DNA of 64,000 bases, from the NCBI GenBank assembly GCA_963827655.1, contig CAWHCF010000026.1, positions 32,001-96,000 on the forward strand, read 5' to 3'. The DNA is from an uncultured Acidobacteriota bacterium. Lineage in GTDB: Bacteria; Acidobacteriota; UBA6911. Shown piece by piece: positions 43,730-51,206 of the stretch. The first letter of the stretch is position 1. Each line of letters starts with the position of its first letter. The notes under the pieces were generated by a model. It had not been told where the DNA came from. It searched no databases and saw only the letters and a list, made by a program, of their open reading frames with translations. A program made the position numbers and the translations under genes.

Positions 43730-44695
43730 TTACTCCCCTCGAACCGCTGCTGCGGGCATCGATCGAGTATTCCGCTCAACCAGGGCGCGAGCGACAGGCG
43801 CCAGCTTTTCGAGCTGCGCGGATGCCAGTGGAGACAAGTAGGGAAGTACAGGGCCGGTCCGAGCCACACCGGCCAGTTCGGTCGCAGCGTGGAGCACCCG
43901 GGCGGGCCCCCAGGAGTCGCGCAGGTCTTCCAGAGGCAGAAACTCCTGACGCAACGTCTCGGCGCTGTCATAGTCCTCTCGACGGCAGGCGTCGAAGAGC
44001 TGGTTGCTCAATGCGGGCGCGATGCACCCGGACCCTGTGGTGAATCCGGGAAGCTTCCACTGGCGCATGTGGGCGATGGCAGGACGCTCTCCGATCCCGC
44101 TTACCACCCTCGATCGGTCCACGCGCCGCAACAGGCCTTCCAGATAAGGATCAATGCGCGGATCCGCTCGAACGATCGCATACTTGATCCCGACACATAT
44201 CCCGGCGTCTACCAGCCGGGCGACCGCATCGAGCCCGGCGTCGCGGTCCGTGCCAAAGCTGTTTTCATCCTTGAAATACAGGATCAAGGGCATCTCCGCA
44301 GCTTCGGCGACTTCGCGCAGTCCCTGTTCAATGCCCCCTGGGTCTCGAGGATCCGCGCACGGGAGCATCATGACACAGGGGAAATTGTATTTCCGAAGCA
44401 CACGCGCCTGGTCCAGCGCGCGCCCGTAAGACGGTCCGGCGCTGGGGAGCATCCAGAGATCGCCCGGAAACGCGGACAACCACTCCAATAACACTTCGTA
44501 CTCCGCCAACGTAATATGATAGAGAAAAGCATTGCCGCCATAGACGAGGCGGGTTATGCCGCCGGACGAAATGTGATGGGCGATCCGGTCATTCTCGAGC
44601 CGGTCGAACTTTCGCCCCTCGTCGGCCTTGCGTGCCAGGGGCGGGACGGCAAATACACCGCGTAAGTCTTCCAGCGATACAGGCGTCTTCTTCAT
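43730..44695 (-). CDS. DHDPS-family aldolase/dehydratase (cytoplasmic)
   Basis: GVFAVPP, YGGNA, LILYFK, GIKYA and FTTGSG. Confidence 0.8.
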   Translation of the reverse strand: MKKTPVSLEDLRGVFAVPPLARKADEGRKFDRLENDRIAHHISSGGITRLVYGGNAFLYHITLAEYEVLLEWLSAFPGDLWMLPSAGPSYGRALDQARVLRKYNFPCVMMLPCADPRDPGGIEQGLREVAEAAEMPLILYFKDENSFGTDRDAGLDAVARLVDAGICVGIKYAIVRADPRIDPYLEGLLRRVDRSRVVSGIGERPAIAHMRQWKLPGFTTGSGCIAPALSNQLFDACRREDYDSAETLRQEFLPLEDLRDSWGPARVLHAATELAGVARTGPVLPYLSPLASAQLEKLAPVARALVERNTRSMPAAAVRGE

Positions 44696-44709
44696 CAGGC
44701 AATCCTCCT

Positions 44710-44757
44710 CGTTTCGTGGTGTCTTCGTGGTCGATGCTGCCGAACAAATCAACCACG
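44710..44757. repeat. Degenerate family A doublet at an operon junction
   Basis: ttcgtggtgtcttcgtggtc ... aacaaatcaaccacg, abutting the stop codon of the ACT gene. Confidence 0.65.
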
Positions 44758-45195
44758 CTATCTTTTCTTTTGCAGCGTCGCCTTCTTGATCAGGGCGGTG
44801 GCTTTGCGGGCGTCATCCTCGGTTTCGAAGCCGAATACGGCGGAGTATCTTCTCCCGATGACTTGCGCGACCATAAACCCGAAGTTTATACCTGCGTCCG
44901 CGACCGAACGGGCGATGGCGTATCCCAAGCCAGGCCTGTTGTCCCCCTCGACCAGCAGAGTGGGAATTGACGACGGGCTCAGCCCTGACCCCCTGGCAGC
45001 CGCCGCATTCTTTTTGCCTGTGACGGGATACAACTCGATGGCCGCCTTGCTTTCGTTCCCCGGGAAGCGATAGCCCATCACTACCTGCAAGTCGGTTCCC
45101 GCTCCGGCAAAGGGCTCCAGCGCACGGGCGAGAATTCCCGGCGTGTTCGCGACTTCCGCCCGCCAGAGCGTTATCTTTTTCACCGTCACCGCCAT
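44758..45195 (-). CDS. Stand-alone tandem ACT-domain protein
   Basis: Two ACT-like motifs, NTPGILARAL and DNRPGLGYAIA. Confidence 0.75.
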   Translation of the reverse strand: MAVTVKKITLWRAEVANTPGILARALEPFAGAGTDLQVVMGYRFPGNESKAAIELYPVTGKKNAAAARGSGLSPSSIPTLLVEGDNRPGLGYAIARSVADAGINFGFMVAQVIGRRYSAVFGFETEDDARKATALIKKATLQKKR

Positions 45196-45216
45196 TATCG
45201 TTCCTCCCTTAAGCGA

Positions 45217-46474
45217 TCAATTCTGGGGCCGCGTTTTATCCCAGTCAGGCCTGGATAATCCGTTCAGATCCCAGACGACTCGACCTTCACGGATGGTCAA
45301 TTCGCACTCGAGCTTCTGGGTTCCCATCATCTTGCCGCCGCCGACATCAATAAATCCGAAGTTTCCCTTTTTGAGACTCAGCACGACGAGGTCAGCCGTA
45401 GAACCGGCTCCCAGGCTCCCCAGCTCTGGTTCTCTTGATCTGCCGGGCCGGATTCCAGGTAGACCGCAGGATGACGTCCTGGATCGACATGCCGAGGTTC
45501 AGGAACTTGGACATGACGTTGAGCATGTCCTTCATCCCGGCGTTCATGCTGCCCGTGTGAAGATCGGTGCTGATTGAATCGGGTATGAACCCCTGCTTCA
45601 TGGCCGGCACCGCCTGGCTGAAAAGAAAGCTGCCTCCGCCGTGGCCCACGTCGAACAACACGCCCCGTTTGCGGGCTTCAAAGAGATACGGCATGACTTT
45701 GCCTTGACTGTCCAGCATCGGCACTCGTCCCAGATAGGTATGAGTATACATATCGCCTGGCCGAAGATGCTTCAGCACGAGCTCCTGGAAGGGACGTTCG
45801 GGCACGAAATCACCGAAGTCTACCATGATCGGGACATTCGTCATCTTGCCGGCCTCTACCGCCCGGTCGACCGGGTCCCACTCGGGCCCCTGATAGTGAG
45901 CCGTCTTGATTCCTACAATGATTCCCGGATATTGTCGGATCCGCATTGCAGTCAATCTGGCATCCATGTCGGCGAGGTTTTGCTCGACGGGACCTCCGCG
46001 CATGCCTGAGCCTACAATGTTGATCAGAGCGAGTACTCGAGTCCTGGCCTGGTCAATCACCTGGTCTTTGAACTGCCGGAAATTCCGCCAACCACTCCCG
46101 CCGGCGTCCACTACCGTGGTCACTCCGCTGCGAAAGGTGAAGCCGTCCGGAGGTACACTGCTGGTGCCGTTGCTCAGGTAAGCATCGGGTTCGGTGCCGT
46201 AGAAAACGTGAACGTGAATGTCTATCAGGCCCGGAGTCACAAACAATCCGGGAACATTGACCACCTGTCGGGCCTGTGCGGCTGGAATGCTGGAGGCCAC
46301 CTGGCTGATTTTGCCGCCCGTAATGCCGACATCCATGACGGAGTCAATCTGATTCCTGGGGTCAATAACATGTCCGCCTTTAATAAGGAGGTCAAATTGT
46401 TGCCCCCGTGCAATAGCGGCGAAAGCCCAGAGATACAAGCCCACGGCAACAAAGACGCTTTTTTGTGCTCGCAA
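45217..46474 (-). CDS. Amidohydrolase/deacetylase (dihydroorotase-like, EF_0837-type) with signal peptide; frameshift near 45430
   Basis: PGLIDIHVH, GVTTVVDAG, FDVGHGGGSF, SISTDLH and TWNPA; C-terminus continues to a TGA at 45217. Confidence 0.88.
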
Positions 46475-46522
46475 TTCTCCTCCTGCTGTTGCAATTTACT
46501 TCACTATAAACCGAGGTGAGTC

Positions 46523-46978
46523 ATGAAACAAAAATCAAAACTTCAATCTCGACGCGAGTTATTTCACGCCGGCGTTCTGGGTCTGGTTGGAACCGGTGCG
46601 ATGCAAGCGACGGACTCCTGGACGCCCAAGAAGAAGCGGGTAGAGGGCCCGATCCGCTCGGGACATCTTCTGTTCTTGAGCGGGATCGGAGGCTGGTATC
46701 CGGAGCGCCGCCCCGAGGGTCCTGGCGACATCCGCCGGCAGACTGGAGATGCGCTGGGGATCATGAAGGCTTCCCTGGAAAAGGCGGGTTCCTCCATGGC
46801 AAATGTCTTGAAGGTCCAGGTCTCGCTCGTCGATCCGGAGCGAAACTGGCAACCCATGGACGAGGTCTACAACACTTTTTTCCCCGAGCCCAGGCCCGCG
46901 CGATCCTACTGGGGCTCTACCGGGTTTCGGCGGCCCGGTCAGCTTCTCCAGATTGACTGCATCGCCTACGTCGACTAG
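46523..46978 (+). CDS. RidA/YjgF-family protein with Tat-like signal
   Basis: SRRELF plus h-region; LFLSG, NVLKV, PRPARS (catalytic Arg) and QIDCIA. Confidence 0.88.
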   Translation: MKQKSKLQSRRELFHAGVLGLVGTGAMQATDSWTPKKKRVEGPIRSGHLLFLSGIGGWYPERRPEGPGDIRRQTGDALGIMKASLEKAGSSMANVLKVQVSLVDPERNWQPMDEVYNTFFPEPRPARSYWGSTGFRRPGQLLQIDCIAYVD

Positions 46979-46982
46979 GTTG

Positions 46983-47072
46983 CTTCGCGTTTCTTAGTGT
47001 CTTCGTGTCTTCGTGGTTAGTGGGGCCAACAAATACCACAAGGATACAACGTCACGAAGAAACACCAGGAAT
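46983..47072. repeat. Family A inverted doublet directly after the RidA stop codon
   Basis: Forward arm 46983..47020; full reverse copy 47028..47072. Confidence 0.9.
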
Positions 47073-47120
47073 CTCCGTTGTCAAAGAACAAGAGCACCAG
47101 CGAGCGACATATAGAAACGT

Positions 47121-47545
47121 CAACTAGGCGCGCTTCGCTTCAGATTTCCGGCTCCTGGCCATAGATCAGAATGGCTTCCTCGGCGATCATTTCGGCAAAG
47201 GCGTTCCCGTCTCGCCGCATCGCGCGGAACTCCCCAGGAGTGTACACCAGGAGATCAACGGCACCCACCTCCGTCGGCAAAAGACGTGCGGCTTCCAGCA
47301 GACGATCGAAAAACGGGACATCTGTTTCTTTGATGACGACTACGTCCACGTCGCTCAATTCGTCCGCTTCTTTTCGAGCCCACGAGCCGAAAAGATAGAT
47401 GCACTTGGGCTCATAAGCAACCAAGGCGTCTCTTATTCGATCAACGTAGCTCCTTGAGTCGCAACTCTATTTCGTCTTGGGTTGCTGTCTCGTCACGCAG
47501 CTAGACCACAAAGACACAAAGAAACACCAACTAGGCGCGCTTCGC
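47121..47545. mobile_element. Insertion bounded by exact 18-bp direct repeats
   Basis: caactaggcgcgcttcgc at 47121..47138 and 47528..47545; the second copy includes the 3' end and stop codon of the SelA-like gene. Confidence 0.8.
47140..47424 (-). CDS. Minimal nucleotidyltransferase (MNT, type VII TA antitoxin-like); 5' end uncertain; partner gene truncated
   Basis: IYLFGSWAR..SDVDVVVI and VDLLVYTP; an overlapping ATG at 47162 gives only MARSRKSEAKRA*. Confidence 0.85.
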   Translation of the reverse strand: MVAYEPKCIYLFGSWARKEADELSDVDVVVIKETDVPFFDRLLEAARLLPTEVGAVDLLVYTPGEFRAMRRDGNAFAEMIAEEAILIYGQEPEI

Positions 47546-49078
47546 GGTCCAGCGGGCTTTGCCGTACTCCCCGAGGTCGAGATCGCCCGATAATCGGTCG
47601 GCGGATACCTGTCCGGTAAACCTGTAACTCAGGTTGATTCCTTCGCAGGGGAGGACGCTGCGCATCTGAATGTTTCCGCCATCGATGGTGCCACTCAAGT
47701 CGCCACGCGCTCTGCGCCCGAGATGGAGGCCGGAGACGCGATTATCTTTAACGTCCAGGATCATGGTGTGGCGCGCCGAACCGGAGGCAAAAGCCACGTC
47801 CACTTCCCAGCGCCCGGCTACATCGACCGACGGAGGCGCGGGAGCAGGTTTCTGCGCTCCCTTTGGAGCCTGGCTGAAAACTTCCCGGAGGCGGCGGGCT
47901 ACAAGCAGGTGATCGCCCTGTTTTATCGATACGGGTCGGATGGTGAAAGAATACCCGGTTCCGGTGGCGTGCGACATGATCCGAGGCTCGCCACTGACCA
48001 GCTTTTCGTACAGCTCGCCGGCCGTAATCGCAACCTTGTCAGGGTCCCACTCCACGTTCATCACGGGAAACGGACTGGCGCCGGCCGGAGGGACCATCTT
48101 GGTACGGACGCCGTCCACCTTGGTTATCGCGTCGCTGATATCGGTCAGCCAGGATTCCCACTGCCGATATTCTTTCTGGATGTCGCGAGTGGTTACCCAA
48201 ACCTCGATCGCCGCCAGCATTCCCATGATTTCTTCTTTGCCGACTTTCATCATGCGACCGAAGGCATGGTGCGGTGCGCTATTGACCCAGGCGGCCTGAA
48301 CCAGATCTTTGCGCCCCAACAATAATCCCGCGCACTGCGGGCCCCGAATGATCTTCCCGCCGCTATAAGCCACCAGGTCGGCGCCCCGTGACAGATAGGG
48401 ATTGGGTTTCAGCGGGAGCTCGGCGGCGGCGTCGACCAGCACAGGCACATTCATTTTGTGTGCCGCTTTCGCCATTTCTTCCAGCCGGATCTTCCCTCTG
48501 GCTTCGCCCGTACCCAGAACCGCCACCATCGCCGTATGGCGTCCCAGGGCCGCGTGGAATTCCTGCTCCGAGTCCACTTCGACTACTTGCACACCCACGG
48601 TCCGGATCGCGTGGTCATATTCGTTGCGCGACTGCTTCGGCATGATGACTTCGTTCTTCAGACCGGTCAGGTTCGGTAACTGCTTCATGTTCTCCGGATC
48701 GGCCCCCGCCACGCAAGCCGCGGTGGCGTGTGTCAGGCCAGCAGCGGCTCCCGAGGTCACAATTCCCGATTCACAACCCAATAACTCGGACAGGCGGACG
48801 CCGACTCGCTCCATCAGCTCGTCGATATTGACCGAGTGGTACGAAGCTTCTTCCATGGCCTTCTTGACTTCGGGCAATGTCAGGGTGCCGCCGTTGATCG
48901 TAAGGGTGGCCGTGAGGTTGATGAAAGGTCGAACGCCGATTCGGGTGTAGATGTTGGGAGTGCCGTGAGAAGGCGGAGTGTCCGCCGCGTCCGTCGTTCG
49001 GGCAACCGCGCCGGTAGCCGCGGCCAGTCCTGCGGCCTGGAAGACTTCCCGCCGGGTGATCTTGGATCGAGGGTTCAT
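47531..49078 (-). CDS. SelA-related/DgaE-like PLP enzyme with Tat signal and C-terminal beta domain
   Basis: TRREVF signal, RPFINLTAT, VTSGAAAG, VDAAAE, YSGGK (PLP Lys), RGPQ and MKVGKEEI. Confidence 0.85.
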   Translation of the reverse strand: MNPRSKITRREVFQAAGLAAATGAVARTTDAADTPPSHGTPNIYTRIGVRPFINLTATLTINGGTLTLPEVKKAMEEASYHSVNIDELMERVGVRLSELLGCESGIVTSGAAAGLTHATAACVAGADPENMKQLPNLTGLKNEVIMPKQSRNEYDHAIRTVGVQVVEVDSEQEFHAALGRHTAMVAVLGTGEARGKIRLEEMAKAAHKMNVPVLVDAAAELPLKPNPYLSRGADLVAYSGGKIIRGPQCAGLLLGRKDLVQAAWVNSAPHHAFGRMMKVGKEEIMGMLAAIEVWVTTRDIQKEYRQWESWLTDISDAITKVDGVRTKMVPPAGASPFPVMNVEWDPDKVAITAGELYEKLVSGEPRIMSHATGTGYSFTIRPVSIKQGDHLLVARRLREVFSQAPKGAQKPAPAPPSVDVAGRWEVDVAFASGSARHTMILDVKDNRVSGLHLGRRARGDLSGTIDGGNIQMRSVLPCEGINLSYRFTGQVSADRLSGDLDLGEYGKARWTAKRA

Positions 49079-49236
49079 ATTACCTCCGTTCAGTGTAGGC
49101 GAAAATTTTGGCAAAGATTCTTGGTGTTTCGGTTCGTGTCTGTTAGTGCGCCGAAGCCAACTCCTGGTACGCGTAGTTCGCATTTGCTGCACCGCTGAGC
49201 ACGCAACCGACGACCAGCCAGGGAGCCGCATCACGT

Positions 49237-50133
49237 CTAAGTCTCGAGAGCCCGCCTGCAGTACTCCAGGCACCGCTTGACTTCCTGGACGGTGTCGCTT
49301 CCCTTGTACTCGTATTCGAGGTTGGCGGGTATGTTCCACTTTTGTTCGCGCAACAGCGCGAGCACCGCTTTGATGGGCGTGTCGCCTTCTCCGAAAGGCA
49401 CGTTATCCCCCTGATCCTTCTTGCGGTCTTTAATGTGCAGGGTCACGATCCGGTCGTGGTGCCGGCGCAGGAAGTCGACCGCGTCGAAATTGGCAGCCGT
49501 GAAATGACCGATGTCGAGGTTGATGGCAATGTATTCCGAATTACCCTCCATCGCTCGCGCGAAGCTTTCGGGAGTGGCGAATTCATTCGGATCGGATACC
49601 TTTGAATGGTTATGCATGCCAACCCGGATTTTATGCTTTCGCGCGAAGCCATCGATGCGCTTGGCCGTGCTGACGTTGGACGATGCGGTAATTATCTTGA
49701 CCCCAAGAGCCTTGGCTATCTCAAAGCCGCGTTCCATCTCCGCATCCGTGAAATCGTCCCTGAAGCTCAAATTATAGGCGTAGAGATCGATTCCAGCGCT
49801 GTCGAGCTTGGCGCGGACGGCTTTGATTTGATCCAGGGGAACGGTCAGGCGCCAATTTCGGAGGGCTTCGCGACCCTGAGGTCCTCGCGTTGCTTCGTCT
49901 CTCGGTTCCACATGTCCCTGCCAGAGCTCGCAACTGCTGAGTCCGACCTCCACCATGGCTTTTATTGCTTCGTCCAGGGAACGATCCCGAAAACTATAAG
50001 TCTGAACTCCGATCTGGACCCCTTTGACCTTGGAATCCGGCTTCTTCGCCTGTCCCGGCAAAAAGTCCGGGAAAACAGGTGAGGTAAGGCAGCCGGCCAG
50101 TAGCTTGTTCAGGTCTCTTCTGCTCAGTTTCAT
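49237..50133 (-). CDS. Sugar phosphate isomerase/epimerase (xylose isomerase-like TIM barrel), Tat signal
   Basis: SRRDL, GVQTYSFRD, GMHNH, NLDIGHF, LHIKD and LEYE. Confidence 0.88.
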   Translation of the reverse strand: MKLSRRDLNKLLAGCLTSPVFPDFLPGQAKKPDSKVKGVQIGVQTYSFRDRSLDEAIKAMVEVGLSSCELWQGHVEPRDEATRGPQGREALRNWRLTVPLDQIKAVRAKLDSAGIDLYAYNLSFRDDFTDAEMERGFEIAKALGVKIITASSNVSTAKRIDGFARKHKIRVGMHNHSKVSDPNEFATPESFARAMEGNSEYIAINLDIGHFTAANFDAVDFLRRHHDRIVTLHIKDRKKDQGDNVPFGEGDTPIKAVLALLREQKWNIPANLEYEYKGSDTVQEVKRCLEYCRRALET

Positions 50134-50326
50134 CTCTATCCTCCAGCCGTTCGGGCATCAATGTCGCGTCTGACTGTTGTTCCTCTGTTGTCCGAATGGG
50201 CCTGGCTCGCGGTTACCGACGGGAAAACAAAATGGAACGTCAGAGCGACTGCATCGTTTGAGTTCTGTGCCGGCCTGAGAGCGGAAGTCTACTCCAGGAT
50301 CCGCCAAAATGCGAGAATCGCCTCTA

Positions 50327-50467
50327 GGGCTCGCGCAGAAATAACTTCACATTCTGGCGCGAGAGTCGGTGGTCAATCATGGACCGGTTTCTGTTCGCTA
50401 AGCACGCTGAGGATCGCGCCCCTTCTCGGGCCTGCAGCAGAACGCGAACTTATTTCTGCGCGAACCC
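50327..50467. mobile_element. MITE, shorter inverted relative of 6800..7008
   Basis: TIRs GGGCTCGCGCAGAAATAACTTCACATTC and GGGTTCGCGCAGAAATAAGTTCGCGTTC; TA on both flanks. Confidence 0.85.
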
Positions 50468-50636
50468 TAAACCCGTCCGGGTCGTCCGCAAACGGATCGC
50501 AAGGTCAGGGTTGTTCCGAGAGGGTATGCTGCCGAGCGTAACAGCCAAGGAACCGGCAATGATTTCGACGACCACGAGGCTTCGGGCAGGAATTGTGTTG
50601 CGGTGGGGTCCGTTCGGCTAAGCCGAGCTCACGGTT

Positions 50637-51206
50637 ATGAAAGCCAGATTCCTTCGCTCCGTTCCGGCAATTCTGATCGTTCCCGTCTTTCTGCTGCTCG
50701 CCCAGTCGCAGCGAGAGAAAGAGCGACTGGCCGAAGTTCTGGAACTCAAGTCCGCGATGAACGTCGCCGAAATCGGTGCCGGTGACGGCGAAATGAGTTT
50801 TTTCGTCGCCGGCAAAGTGAGCCGCATCTACATCAACGAAATCAATTCCGATAAGCTCCGCAAGCTGCGCGATCGGGCGACCAACGTGGCCAACGTCACG
50901 GTTGTCGAAGGTGACGCCACCGAGACGCGCCTGCCGGAAGGCTGCTGCGATGCCGTCTTCATGCGCGACGTCTACCATCACCTGACCGACGCCGCGGCGA
51001 TCAACGCCAGCATCGCCAGGGCGCTGAAGCCAGGCGGCGTGCTCGTGGTGATCGATTTTCTTCCCGGCAATGAGGGCCACGGCATCACCCCCGAAAAACT
51101 CGTGGAGAGCGTTACTCGCGCCGGGTTCGAGCCGATCCGCACGATCGACGACTGGCAGTTCCGGACTTACTGCGTGGTATTTCGAAAGACTAAGGATTGC
51201 GACTGA
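50637..51206 (+). CDS. Class I SAM-dependent methyltransferase with N-terminal hydrophobic/signal segment
   Basis: VAEIGAGDG, DAVFMRDVYHH and LKPGGVLVVID. Confidence 0.85.
   Translation: MKARFLRSVPAILIVPVFLLLAQSQREKERLAEVLELKSAMNVAEIGAGDGEMSFFVAGKVSRIYINEINSDKLRKLRDRATNVANVTVVEGDATETRLPEGCCDAVFMRDVYHHLTDAAAINASIARALKPGGVLVVIDFLPGNEGHGITPEKLVESVTRAGFEPIRTIDDWQFRTYCVVFRKTKDCD

What the first reader, a model, noticed from the sequence alone, without database searches (positions are those of the whole stretch)
47121..47545. Repeat-led MNT-HEPN fragment inserted at a stop codon with an 18-bp target duplication
Seen: caactaggcgcgcttcgc occurs exactly at 47121 and 47528, and the latter is the last codons plus TAG of the SelA-like gene. 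Between them, on the minus strand, lie a family A repeat arm (ttggtgtttctttgtgtctttgtggt), an MNT gene and an overlapping ORF start MARSRKSEAKR that breaks off exactly at the duplicated sequence. Known: MNT genes usually overlap a downstream HEPN toxin gene. Inference: a roughly 390-bp piece starting at a family A repeat was pasted behind the stop codon and truncated at a GCGAAGCGC microhomology. No transposase or TIRs are present, so this may be a repeat-guided DNA capture mechanism that here leaves an orphan antitoxin.
Basis: partly seen in the sequence, partly recalled or inferred. Interest (0 to 1): 0.8.

Follow-up and report, generated by a model that had tools for sequence, protein, structure and literature searches.

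The report
Toxin-antitoxin remnant with recombination scar
A small toxin-antitoxin gene pair lodged between two metabolic genes has lost its toxin gene here, and the 18-base duplication is the scar of that loss, an ordinary case of genome decay and not a new way of capturing DNA.

Summary
The 18-mer is real. It is exact at 47121 and 47528 and occurs nowhere else in the 8.18-Mb assembly. Between the copies lie a lone family-A repeat arm, an MNT nucleotidyltransferase gene, and the first 11 codons of its HEPN partner.

HEPN-family alignments show that the HEPN sequence runs 9 nt into copy 1 (GCGAAGCGC, Ala-Lys-Arg; Trp is expected next). The 18-mer is therefore 9 nt of HEPN/SelA-end microhomology plus 9 nt (GCCTAGTTG) identical to the SelA-like stop region.

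Contigs of related strains, about 98% identical, from four soil/rhizosphere studies stop matching exactly at 47130. In two runs they continue for 488 other letters to the RidA-like gene. This is a long allele, presumably with whole HEPN, but I did not see the letters.

One contig is an empty-site allele with a single 18-mer. Relatives also share SelA-end, arm and MNT in that order (P0245).

The module is therefore resident, and this genome lost the toxin gene. No other case of a repeat plus a duplication exists in the genome. The scan had already noted this repeat family elsewhere in the genome. Our junction rests on this assembly alone. Interest is low.

The parts
46523..46978 (+). RidA-like (Endoribonuclease L-PSP) gene, convergent with the SelA-like gene
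   Evidence: Pfam PF01042 3.6e-15. Contigs of related strains match up to 46982.
46979..47080 (.). Full family-A palindromic repeat (hairpin of GTGTCTTC-type octamers)
   Evidence: nhmmer with a model built from 51 genomic copies gives 84 bits, E 2e-27. Inverted arms 46989-47017 / 47035-47063. It is not part of the matching contig pieces of related strains.
47081..47105 (.). Unique spacer. In the empty-site allele it lies directly next to arm + single 18-mer + SelA-like gene
   Evidence: Unique in the genome. The 19-nt core of the 27 letters in the X2 joint 46995->47513 matches only here, with 1 mismatch and 0 expected.
47106..47123 (-). Degenerate end of a family-A arm (arm') next to copy 1
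   Evidence: 11 of 15 nt equal to the arm beside copy 2 (family D2). Too decayed for the nhmmer model to find.
47121..47138 (.). 18-mer copy 1. 47130-47138 is HEPN codons 9-11. 47121-47129 is the copy of the SelA-like stop region (GCC TAG TTG on the minus strand)
   Evidence: HEPN family N-termini. Related contigs stop matching at 47130.
47130..47162 (-). HEPN toxin gene remnant, codons 1-11 (MARSRKSEAKR), overlapping the MNT 3' end by 23 nt
   Evidence: The same overlap and N-terminal pattern occur in 5 of the 5 closest MNT loci. 'EAKRW' is present in 47 of 120 listed HEPN proteins.
47140..47445 (-). MNT (minimal nucleotidyltransferase) antitoxin gene. The GS-X10-DXD motif is intact. There is no in-frame start codon upstream of the TTG at 47424
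   Evidence: Pfam NTP_transf_2 / Polbeta. 97% identical to P0121, which starts MDSR-VDRI. The block 47130-47445 is shared with contigs of 4 of 4 runs.
47446..47504 (-). Variable spacer upstream of MNT. It differs among related strains
   Evidence: Related contigs run on unlike beyond 47445 and 47506. The N-terminal extensions of P0121, P0245, P0247 and P0250 all differ.
47505..47530 (-). Lone family-A arm directly behind the SelA-like stop codon
   Evidence: nhmmer 10.4 bits. 34 other genomic blastn hits fall on this part only. SelA-side contigs of X1 and X4 reach into it.
47528..47545 (.). 18-mer copy 2: the native end of the SelA-like gene (AKRA, TAG) plus the first 3 nt of the arm
   Evidence: The G034 homologue ends ...WMARKTAPD against ...WTAKRA here (G034 is unpublished). 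P0245 reads through the same letters in a related strain.
47531..49339 (-). SelA-like PLP-dependent enzyme ORF (start codon uncertain)

Best explanation
An MNT-HEPN toxin-antitoxin module is resident between the convergent SelA-like and RidA-like genes in this lineage. In this genome the HEPN toxin gene has been removed from codon 12 onward, leaving an orphan MNT gene that is probably decaying.

The break used a 9-nt identity (GCGAAGCGC). HEPN codons 9-11 (Ala-Lys-Arg) happen to share it with the last codons of the SelA-like gene 407 nt upstream. The next 9 nt at the junction (GCC TAG TTG) are the letters that follow that same 9-mer at the SelA-like stop. After them comes an old family-A repeat arm. 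The '18-bp target duplication' is therefore a recombination scar, not a transposition footprint.

Two routes give this result:
(b) My slight preference, about 0.4. This is a single short-homology event, either template switching at a fork or synthesis-dependent end joining. The strand ending in HEPN ...GCGAAGCGC paired with the SelA-like end, copied GCCTAG(TTG), and re-paired through the similarity of the two repeat arms downstream of HEPN.
(a) About 0.3. The 18-mer was already duplicated when the whole module arrived. HEPN was later lost by plain slippage between the two 9-nt repeats.

Shown: the duplication, the HEPN-native extent, the long and empty alleles, and the shared gene order. Inferred: that the 488 letters of the long allele are the rest of HEPN, the order of events, and the enzymology.
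For: 1. The 18-mer is exact and unique.

2. In the 5 closest MNT loci of other genomes (54-69% identity), an overlapping HEPN ORF starts inside the last MNT codons: M..(R/K)(K/E).E(A/T).RWFQQ. Among the 120 best HEPN proteins, 47 have EAKRW and 49 have EARRW there. Our MARSRKSEAKR is therefore HEPN through CGC, and TGG should follow.

3. Codon 11 ends at 47130. Contigs of 4 of 4 laid runs start matching exactly at 47130 at 96.5-98.2% identity. In X1 and X3 the same contig goes on for 488 other letters to the RidA-like gene end at 46982, where this genome has 147. 488 equals 417 (the rest of a 149-aa HEPN plus its stop) plus 71.

4. P0245 (122 aa) reads VPSW.FFVSL from the SelA-end 18-mer and arm, then 11 codons, then VDRIRDAL of MNT. 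X1 and X3 contigs have exactly 33 letters beyond 47445, and the SelA-side contigs of X1 and X4 begin in the arm. The gene order is therefore shared.

5. An X2 contig joins 46995 to 47513 through 27 letters that match our unique 47081-47105 (23 of 25 plus a 2-nt indel). This is an empty-site allele.

6. Signs of decay: our MNT has no start codon, and related strains carry frameshifted variants P0183 and P0253.

7. No HEPN of this family occurs anywhere in the assembly; the best tblastn E is 0.031.
Against: - I never saw the letters of the long allele, so 'rest of HEPN' rests on the length and on the codon-exact boundary.
- A full HEPN starting MARSRKSEAKRW was not among the 165 HEPN proteins listed.
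- No contig of X1-X4 covers our junction 47073-47129, so this allele is seen only in this assembly.
- The RidA-side match of the long allele ends at 46982, but that of the empty allele ends at 46995. The three alleles therefore differ by more than one event.
- Arm' differs from the other arm at 4 of 15 positions while the 18-mers are identical. This is uneven if both were duplicated together.
Confidence: 0.7

Rival explanations
1. A ~390-bp piece (repeat arm + MNT + HEPN start), already truncated, was copied from a donor elsewhere and pasted behind the stop codon of an empty site by a repeat-guided capture process, duplicating 18 bp.
For: An empty-site allele with a single 18-mer exists. The insert starts at a repeat arm and ends at a microhomology.
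Against: Related strains have the same SelA-end, arm, MNT and HEPN-start order with a longer continuation to the RidA-like gene. The truncated form therefore derives from a resident module. No donor exists in the genome at the DNA level (only the arm part has other hits) or the protein level. Genome-wide, 0 of the 449 other two-copy local repeats touches a family-A repeat. For flank 12-mers, 5 of 2879 have a nearby second copy, against 4-7 of about 3200 in shifted controls.
Confidence: 0.07
2. A mobile cassette. The whole unit (arm + MNT + HEPN) is a small non-autonomous element that inserts right behind stop codons with an 18-33-bp target or att duplication, moved in trans by the enzyme that moves family-A repeats or by an integrase. 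HEPN was lost later. This is a special case of route (a).
For: The empty-site allele is flanked by exactly the left flank of copy 1 and the right flank of copy 2. The duplication includes a repeat-arm end.
Against: - Nine of the 18 duplicated letters are HEPN-native, which is a coincidence of about 1-2% if the 18-mer were pure target duplication (hand estimate).
- No integrase or transposase lies in or beside the unit.
- The two arms are direct, not inverted.
- There is no second such case in the genome.
- Of the 6 related modules in other genomes, 4 have no shared flanking word of at least 10 nt, and 2 share only their own dispersed repeats.
Confidence: 0.1
3. Assembly artefact. The junction is a chimera of co-occurring alleles (empty and long forms) in a metagenome-assembled genome.
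For: - The genome is a 53-contig, 90%-complete assembly.
- Several alleles co-occur in single samples; X2 holds both the MNT block and the empty site.
- No contig from the four laid runs shows our junction.
Against: The shared sequence at the join is only 18 nt (9 nt under route b). This is below the overlap that de Bruijn (k of at least 21) or long-read assemblers need (general knowledge, not tested). Eight members of the 90% MNT cluster from other assemblies are also called at 94 aa, as here, though that says nothing about the HEPN side.
Confidence: 0.07

Closest known systems
HEPN/MNT toxin-antitoxin modules (type VII HepT/MntA; Yao et al. 2020, PMC7641770, passages read; Makarova et al. 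2009, PMC2701414, and PMC11586414, abstract starts in the search listing only)
   Same: The MNT gene lies upstream and overlaps a HEPN gene. MNT has GS-X10-DXD (GSWARKEADELSDVD). Homologous HEPN partners are PF05168 proteins with an invariant Arg and His 7 apart (R57, H64).
   Different: Only 11 codons of the toxin gene are left here. The partner family is PF05168, not the PF01934/PF08780 HepT families of the paper. The RX4HXY signature is not present in the homologues: H64 is followed by S-L, with no Tyr. Neutralisation by AMPylation is therefore not implied.
Deletions and templated patches at short direct repeats (replication slippage, short-range template switching, microhomology-mediated end joining; PMC7954356 and PMC12426944, abstract starts only; classical bacterial work recalled, not looked up)
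   Same: There is a 9-nt microhomology at the break, and a short patch identical to the sequence next to the other copy of the microhomology 407 nt away. The second junction lies in similar repeat arms.
   Different: The ancestral allele was seen only as contig lengths, not letters, so a one-step event and a two-step event cannot be told apart. No enzyme is implicated.
REP/REPIN palindromic repeats of bacteria (with RAYT transposases)
   Same: Family A is a high-copy intergenic hairpin repeat: 1662 masked intervals covering 50,960 bases. A 120-position consensus was built from 51 full copies. It often sits right behind stop codons.
   Different: No RAYT link was tested here. The repeats at this locus act only as passive homology and as fast-changing spacer. 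REP elements are not known to duplicate their target.
Target-site duplications of transposons, and att duplications of integrative islands at gene 3' ends
   Same: Direct repeats flank an inserted gene, one of them restoring the end of a host gene. An empty site with one copy exists.
   Different: There is no transposase, integrase or terminal inverted repeat. Half of the repeat is native to the inserted gene itself.

Membership tests
HEPN/MNT toxin-antitoxin module (broad sense) | MNT-type nucleotidyltransferase with the GS-X10-DXD motif | tested here: met
   Pfam NTP_transf_2 35.3 bits (cut-off 21) and Polbeta 33.4 bits (cut-off 26.9). The translation contains GS-WARKEADELS-DVD. The motif definition is from PMC7641770.
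HEPN/MNT toxin-antitoxin module (broad sense) | Adjacent, usually overlapping HEPN gene with the R-X4-6-H RNase motif | tested here: not met
   Only codons 1-11 remain. No HEPN of this family is found in the whole assembly. In the 5 closest loci of other genomes the partner is present, though shortened to 98 aa in L038.
Type VII HepT/MntA (sensu Yao et al. 2020) | HepT of PF01934 or PF08780 with RX4HXY, whose Tyr receives AMP | tested here: not met
   Partner homologues are PF05168. Alignment A1 has R57 and H64-S-L, with no Tyr two residues after His.
Type VII HepT/MntA (sensu Yao et al. 2020) | Antitoxin neutralises the toxin by oligo-AMPylation | not testable with these tools
   Biochemical assay needed.
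Transposable element with target-site duplication | Transposase gene or terminal inverted repeats, with a duplication made wholly of target sequence | tested here: not met
   The 407-nt unit holds only MNT. No terminal inverted repeat is among the 13 pairs. Nine of the 18 nt are HEPN-native.
Integrative island with att duplication | Integrase gene inside the flanked segment | tested here: not met
   ORF list of 44000-51000. The unit is 407 nt.
REP/REPIN family | High-copy intergenic imperfect palindrome | tested here: met
   For family A itself. The inserted unit as a whole is not a member.
REP/REPIN family | Cognate RAYT (TnpA-REP) gene | not tested
Not searched.
Microhomology-mediated deletion / template-switch scar | Microhomology at the break, any filler copied from nearby sequence, and a longer ancestral allele | tested here: inconclusive
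   The microhomology (9 nt) and the identical 9-nt patch are shown. The longer allele is shown only as 488 versus 147 letters, and its sequence was not seen.

The most novel reading that the evidence does not exclude
The unit 'family-A repeat arm + MNT + HEPN' is a small non-autonomous mobile cassette. It lands directly behind a stop codon and duplicates 18-33 bp of the target (gene end plus repeat arm), moved in trans by whatever enzyme spreads the octamer-hairpin repeats. The empty-site allele in the soil population would be its pre-insertion state. This would give a concrete mechanism for how toxin-antitoxin modules hop without their own transposase.
Probability: 0.1. Interest if true: 0.7.

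Novelty: new member of a known kind. Interest (0 to 1): 0.25.

Why it matters
The matter is modest. The locus offers a natural three-allele series (empty, whole module, toxin-less remnant) in soil populations of one acidobacterial lineage. This shows how a toxin-antitoxin module is disarmed: the toxin goes first and the antitoxin then decays.

It is also a caution. A perfect 18-bp direct repeat that restores a gene end looks like a target-site duplication, yet half of it is native to the inserted gene.

It does not reveal a new DNA-capture system. If the long allele turned out to carry a second 18-mer, the older insertion step would deserve a closer look.

Tried and rejected
- Exact 18-mer scans of metagenome contigs (15 loci) and genome contigs (8 loci) gave only chance hits. 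None shares more than 21-31 nt with window 46400-48400.

- I looked for the intact partner HEPN (N-terminus MARSRKSEAKRW) among the 120 listed hits of a 4-sequence profile search and the 120 listed hits of a P0022 search, 165 distinct HEPN proteins in all. None was found; the closest differ at 2 of 11 residues.

- No contig of X1-X4 covers 47073-47129 in our form. Lack of cover is no evidence either way.

- Joints 47019->47511 (X3) and 47020->47509 (X1) have sides of only 20-22 letters and loop-like fillers. I take them to be family-A hairpins of other loci.

- I sought a second synteny witness for 'SelA-like and RidA-like adjacent without a module'. Only 3 of 137 class genomes have this RidA at E<=1e-30, and the G093 contig ends before the relevant gene. 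That point therefore rests on unpublished G034 and on the X2 contig.

- I searched for flanking direct repeats around 6 homologous modules in other genomes. Four have none of at least 10 nt, and 2 share only their own dispersed repeats.

- The search of earlier findings 'near' returned nothing.

- Considered and dropped:
  - Diversity-generating retroelement: the differences lie outside the coding part, and there is no reverse transcriptase.
  - Integron cassette: family A is dispersed, not arrayed, and there is no GTTRRRY core at the junctions (read by eye).
  - Chance: 0 expected.
  - The 18-mer being part of the repeat consensus: upstream flanks of 291 arms are not conserved.

Full report
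**Observation**

The 18-mer CAACTAGGCGCGCTTCGC lies at 47121-47138 and 47528-47545. There is no third match even with 2 mismatches, and none is expected by chance. It occurs nowhere else in the 8.18-Mb, 53-contig assembly that holds the window.

Copy 2 is the end of the SelA-like ORF 47531-49339(-)...ACC GCG AAG CGC GCC TAG, followed by TTG. On the minus strand, between the copies, are three things:
- a lone repeat arm at 47505-47530;
- an MNT gene (ORF 47140-47424; Pfam NTP_transf_2 1.6e-8);
- the overlapping start ATG GCC AGG AGC CGG AAA TCT GAA GCG AAG CGC GCC TAG (ATG at 47162-47160).

The repeat extends leftward to 33 nt at 88%. The extra 15 nt are the end of a family-A arm in both copies.

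**The repeat family**

Family A is a high-copy hairpin of GTGTCTTC-like octamers.
- blastn-short with one copy gave 527 hits.
- 291 arms placed in register show a conserved arm and loop but no conserved upstream flank.
- A mask built with 60 genomic arms covers 1662 intervals and 50,960 bases.
- A model built from 51 full copies finds a complete hairpin at 46979-47080 (84 bits) and only a half-arm at 47504-47538.

The TTG that ends the 18-mer (minus strand) is the first 3 nt of the arm consensus. I confirmed its abundance and hairpin form. I did not check its proposed link to a nuclease gene.

**What the short ORF is**

I searched 137 genomes of the class with the MNT protein; 14, this genome included, had a match at E<=1e-10. 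In the 5 closest loci (54-69% identity), an HEPN ORF starts inside the last MNT codons, exactly as here:
- MGGQREAETTRWFQQ
- MAGHRKVEARRWFQQ
- MPSRKKDEAARWFQQ
- MSGQRKGETRRWFQQ
- MHKRKAEARRWFQQ
.

A profile of four of these found 1592 PF05168 proteins at E<=1e-20 among 8000 scored candidates. Of the 120 listed, 47 carry EAKRW and 49 carry EARRW at this place, for example MAGKRKSEAKRWFQQ.

Our MARSRKSEAKR is therefore a true HEPN N-terminus through codon 11 (CGC, ending at 47130), and Trp (TGG) should follow. Instead GCC TAG TTG follows. The 18-mer is thus made of two parts:
- 9 nt (GCGAAGCGC) that belong both to HEPN and to the SelA-like end;
- 9 nt that are identical to what follows this 9-mer at the SelA-like stop.

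The SelA-like C-terminus is native. The homologue in G034 ends ...GEYGHAGWMARKTAPD, against ...GEYGKARWTAKRA here. G034 is unpublished, so this comparison and the next point that uses it may not be published without the depositors' permission.

**Relatives**

No genome of the same genus is held. In G034, of the same class, the SelA-like and RidA-like genes converge and overlap by 4 bp with nothing between them.

Twenty public soil and rhizosphere runs hold part of the stretch. I laid Logan contigs of four runs from four studies. All four have a piece that starts matching exactly at 47130:
- X1 record 1: 7 differences in 316.
- X2 record 11: 11 differences in 316.
- X3 record 18: 6 differences in 316.
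- X4 record 26: 5 differences in 276.

Three of these pieces end at 47445. In X1 and X3 the same contig continues beyond 47130 for 488 other letters and then matches the RidA-like gene up to 46982, where this genome has 147 letters. The boundary at 47130 is the last base of HEPN codon 11. The number 488 equals 417 (codons 12-149 plus the stop of a typical 149-aa member) plus 71. I did not see these letters. That they are the rest of HEPN is an inference.

**Shared order on the other side**

The MNT protein has a 97% identical relative, P0121 (105 aa, MDSR-VDRIRDAL...), and a 90% cluster of 14 variants. The variants show the following:
- P0245 begins VPSWRFFVSLGPSGRRRVHSI-VDRIRDAL. This is the SelA-end 18-mer and arm read in another frame (ours reads APSWCFFVSLWSS there), then 11 codons, then MNT.
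- X1 record 1 and X3 record 18 have exactly 33 unmatched letters beyond 47445. The SelA-side contigs of X1 and X4 begin at 47516 and 47506, inside the arm.
- The order SelA end, 18-mer, arm, spacer, MNT, HEPN start is therefore common to the related strains. The truncated piece was not pasted in separately in this genome.
- The spacer 47446-47504 is variable. Four different N-terminal extensions are seen (P0121, P0245, P0247, P0250).
- Our copy has no in-frame start codon before the TTG at 47424.
- Two relatives carry frameshifted MNT genes (P0183, P0253). The module is decaying in the population.

The start-codon defect in our copy should be treated with that in mind.

**The empty site**

One X2 contig (depth 6, at least 43 letters on each side) joins 46995 to 47513 through 27 letters. 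Their 19-nt core matches the window only at 47087-47105, with 1 mismatch and 0 expected. Segment 47073-47120 is unique in the genome.

In that strain the unique spacer that lies left of our copy 1 is followed by arm, a single 18-mer and the SelA-like gene. It may be the state before the module arrived. Alternatively it may be a later loss of the module by recombination between the two directly repeated arms. The data cannot tell which.

**Genome-wide test of the capture idea**

- The body of the insert has no other copy in the genome. All 34 other blastn hits fall on the arm.
- tblastn finds only two distant MNT genes, at 29% and 32% identity.
- tblastn finds no HEPN of this family; the best E is 0.031.
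- There are 1546 direct repeats of at least 16 nt spaced 30-3000 nt apart. After dropping those half or more inside the family-A mask, of low complexity, or overlapping, 1284 remain. Of these, 450 are strictly two-copy in the genome, and only ours touches a family-A repeat.
- For the 12-mers directly flanking repeat intervals, 5 of 2879 have a second copy within 1.5 kb. One is ours and four come from one repeat cluster on C34. Controls shifted by 60-150 nt give 4-7 of about 3200. Sizes 10-14 behave alike.

There is no sign of a recurrent repeat-plus-duplication process.

**Mechanism**

The toxin gene was lost from a resident module at a 9-nt microhomology. Two routes fit.

Route (b) is a single event. 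A strand ending in HEPN ...GCGAAGCGC pairs with the same 9-mer at the SelA-like end 407 nt away and copies GCCTAG(TTG). It then re-pairs downstream of HEPN through the likeness of the two repeat arms. Those arms share TTG plus 11 of the next 15 nt; by a hand binomial, about 1e-4 by chance.

Route (a) takes two steps. The 18-mer was duplicated when the module arrived, and HEPN later fell out by slippage between the two 9-mers.

Route (a) needs HEPN to share 9 nt with the duplicated target by luck, which I estimate by hand at about 1-2%. Route (b) needs a rarer two-switch event but explains the 18-mer without luck. I put (b) at about 0.4 and (a) at about 0.3. Both routes are known kinds of events (PMC7954356 and PMC12426944, abstract starts only; the older bacterial literature is recalled and was not looked up).

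**Comparison with known systems**

The module is an HEPN/MNT pair in the broad sense (PMC2701414, abstract start only). MNT keeps the GS-X10-DXD motif, as defined in PMC7641770 (passages read).

The partner family is PF05168, not the PF01934/PF08780 HepT families of that paper. Its homologues lack the RX4HXY tyrosine: in alignment A1, H64 is followed by S-L. I therefore do not file it as type VII HepT/MntA in the strict sense. With the toxin gone, it is in any case no longer a working pair.

**Verdict**

Its main claim, a pasted truncated piece made by a new capture mechanism, is not supported.

Open points are the letters of the long allele and read support for our junction. This is an ordinary but neatly documented case of toxin-antitoxin decay.

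Noticed in passing
whole genome G000 (e.g. C17:56947-56996 and +156; C21:67849-67889 and +576; C34:79239-79279 and +1188): 78 isolated exact direct repeats of 16-50 nt are strictly two-copy, lie 30-3000 nt apart, and have unlike 40-nt flanks. Chance would give under one for 18 nt or more (hand estimate). Short local duplications or templated patches seem to be a general feature of this genome, independent of family-A repeats.
   Followed up: partly
window 46523-46978(+), 47531-49339(-), 49237-50133(-): The RidA-like protein (SRRELF), the SelA-like enzyme (internal start MNPRSKITRREVF) and the next gene (MKLSRRDLNKLL) all carry twin-arginine-like leaders. This suggests an exported PLP enzyme and RidA pair. 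In G034 and G093 a second SelA-like paralogue overlaps the RidA gene start by 4 nt. The motif reading is by eye.
   Followed up: no
proteins P0183, P0253, P0245, P0247, P0250 (relatives of window 47140-47445): The MNT gene of related strains shows two frameshifted forms and four different upstream extensions. Eight of the 14 cluster members are called from the internal TTG/ATG at 94 aa. The true start of this antitoxin is unclear across the whole population.
   Followed up: partly
L037 (G035:C389) 1059-1843 and L040 (G067:C336) 916-1669: Homologous MNT-HEPN modules in other genomes sit between arrays of those genomes' own short dispersed repeats (AATCCGC-type heptamers; TTCCGTG-type). These modules tend to lie in repeat-rich gaps.
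   Followed up: partly
L038 (G033:C167) about 1760-2056: The HEPN partner of this close MNT homologue is only 98 aa, with an internal piece missing relative to the 147-150 aa members. This is an independent case of toxin-gene damage beside an intact MNT.
   Followed up: no
window 46966-47039: Summed contig depth on the family-A hairpin is 29-853, against 2-16 on neighbouring genes, in four soil/rhizosphere metagenomes. The repeat family is abundant in those communities.
   Followed up: no
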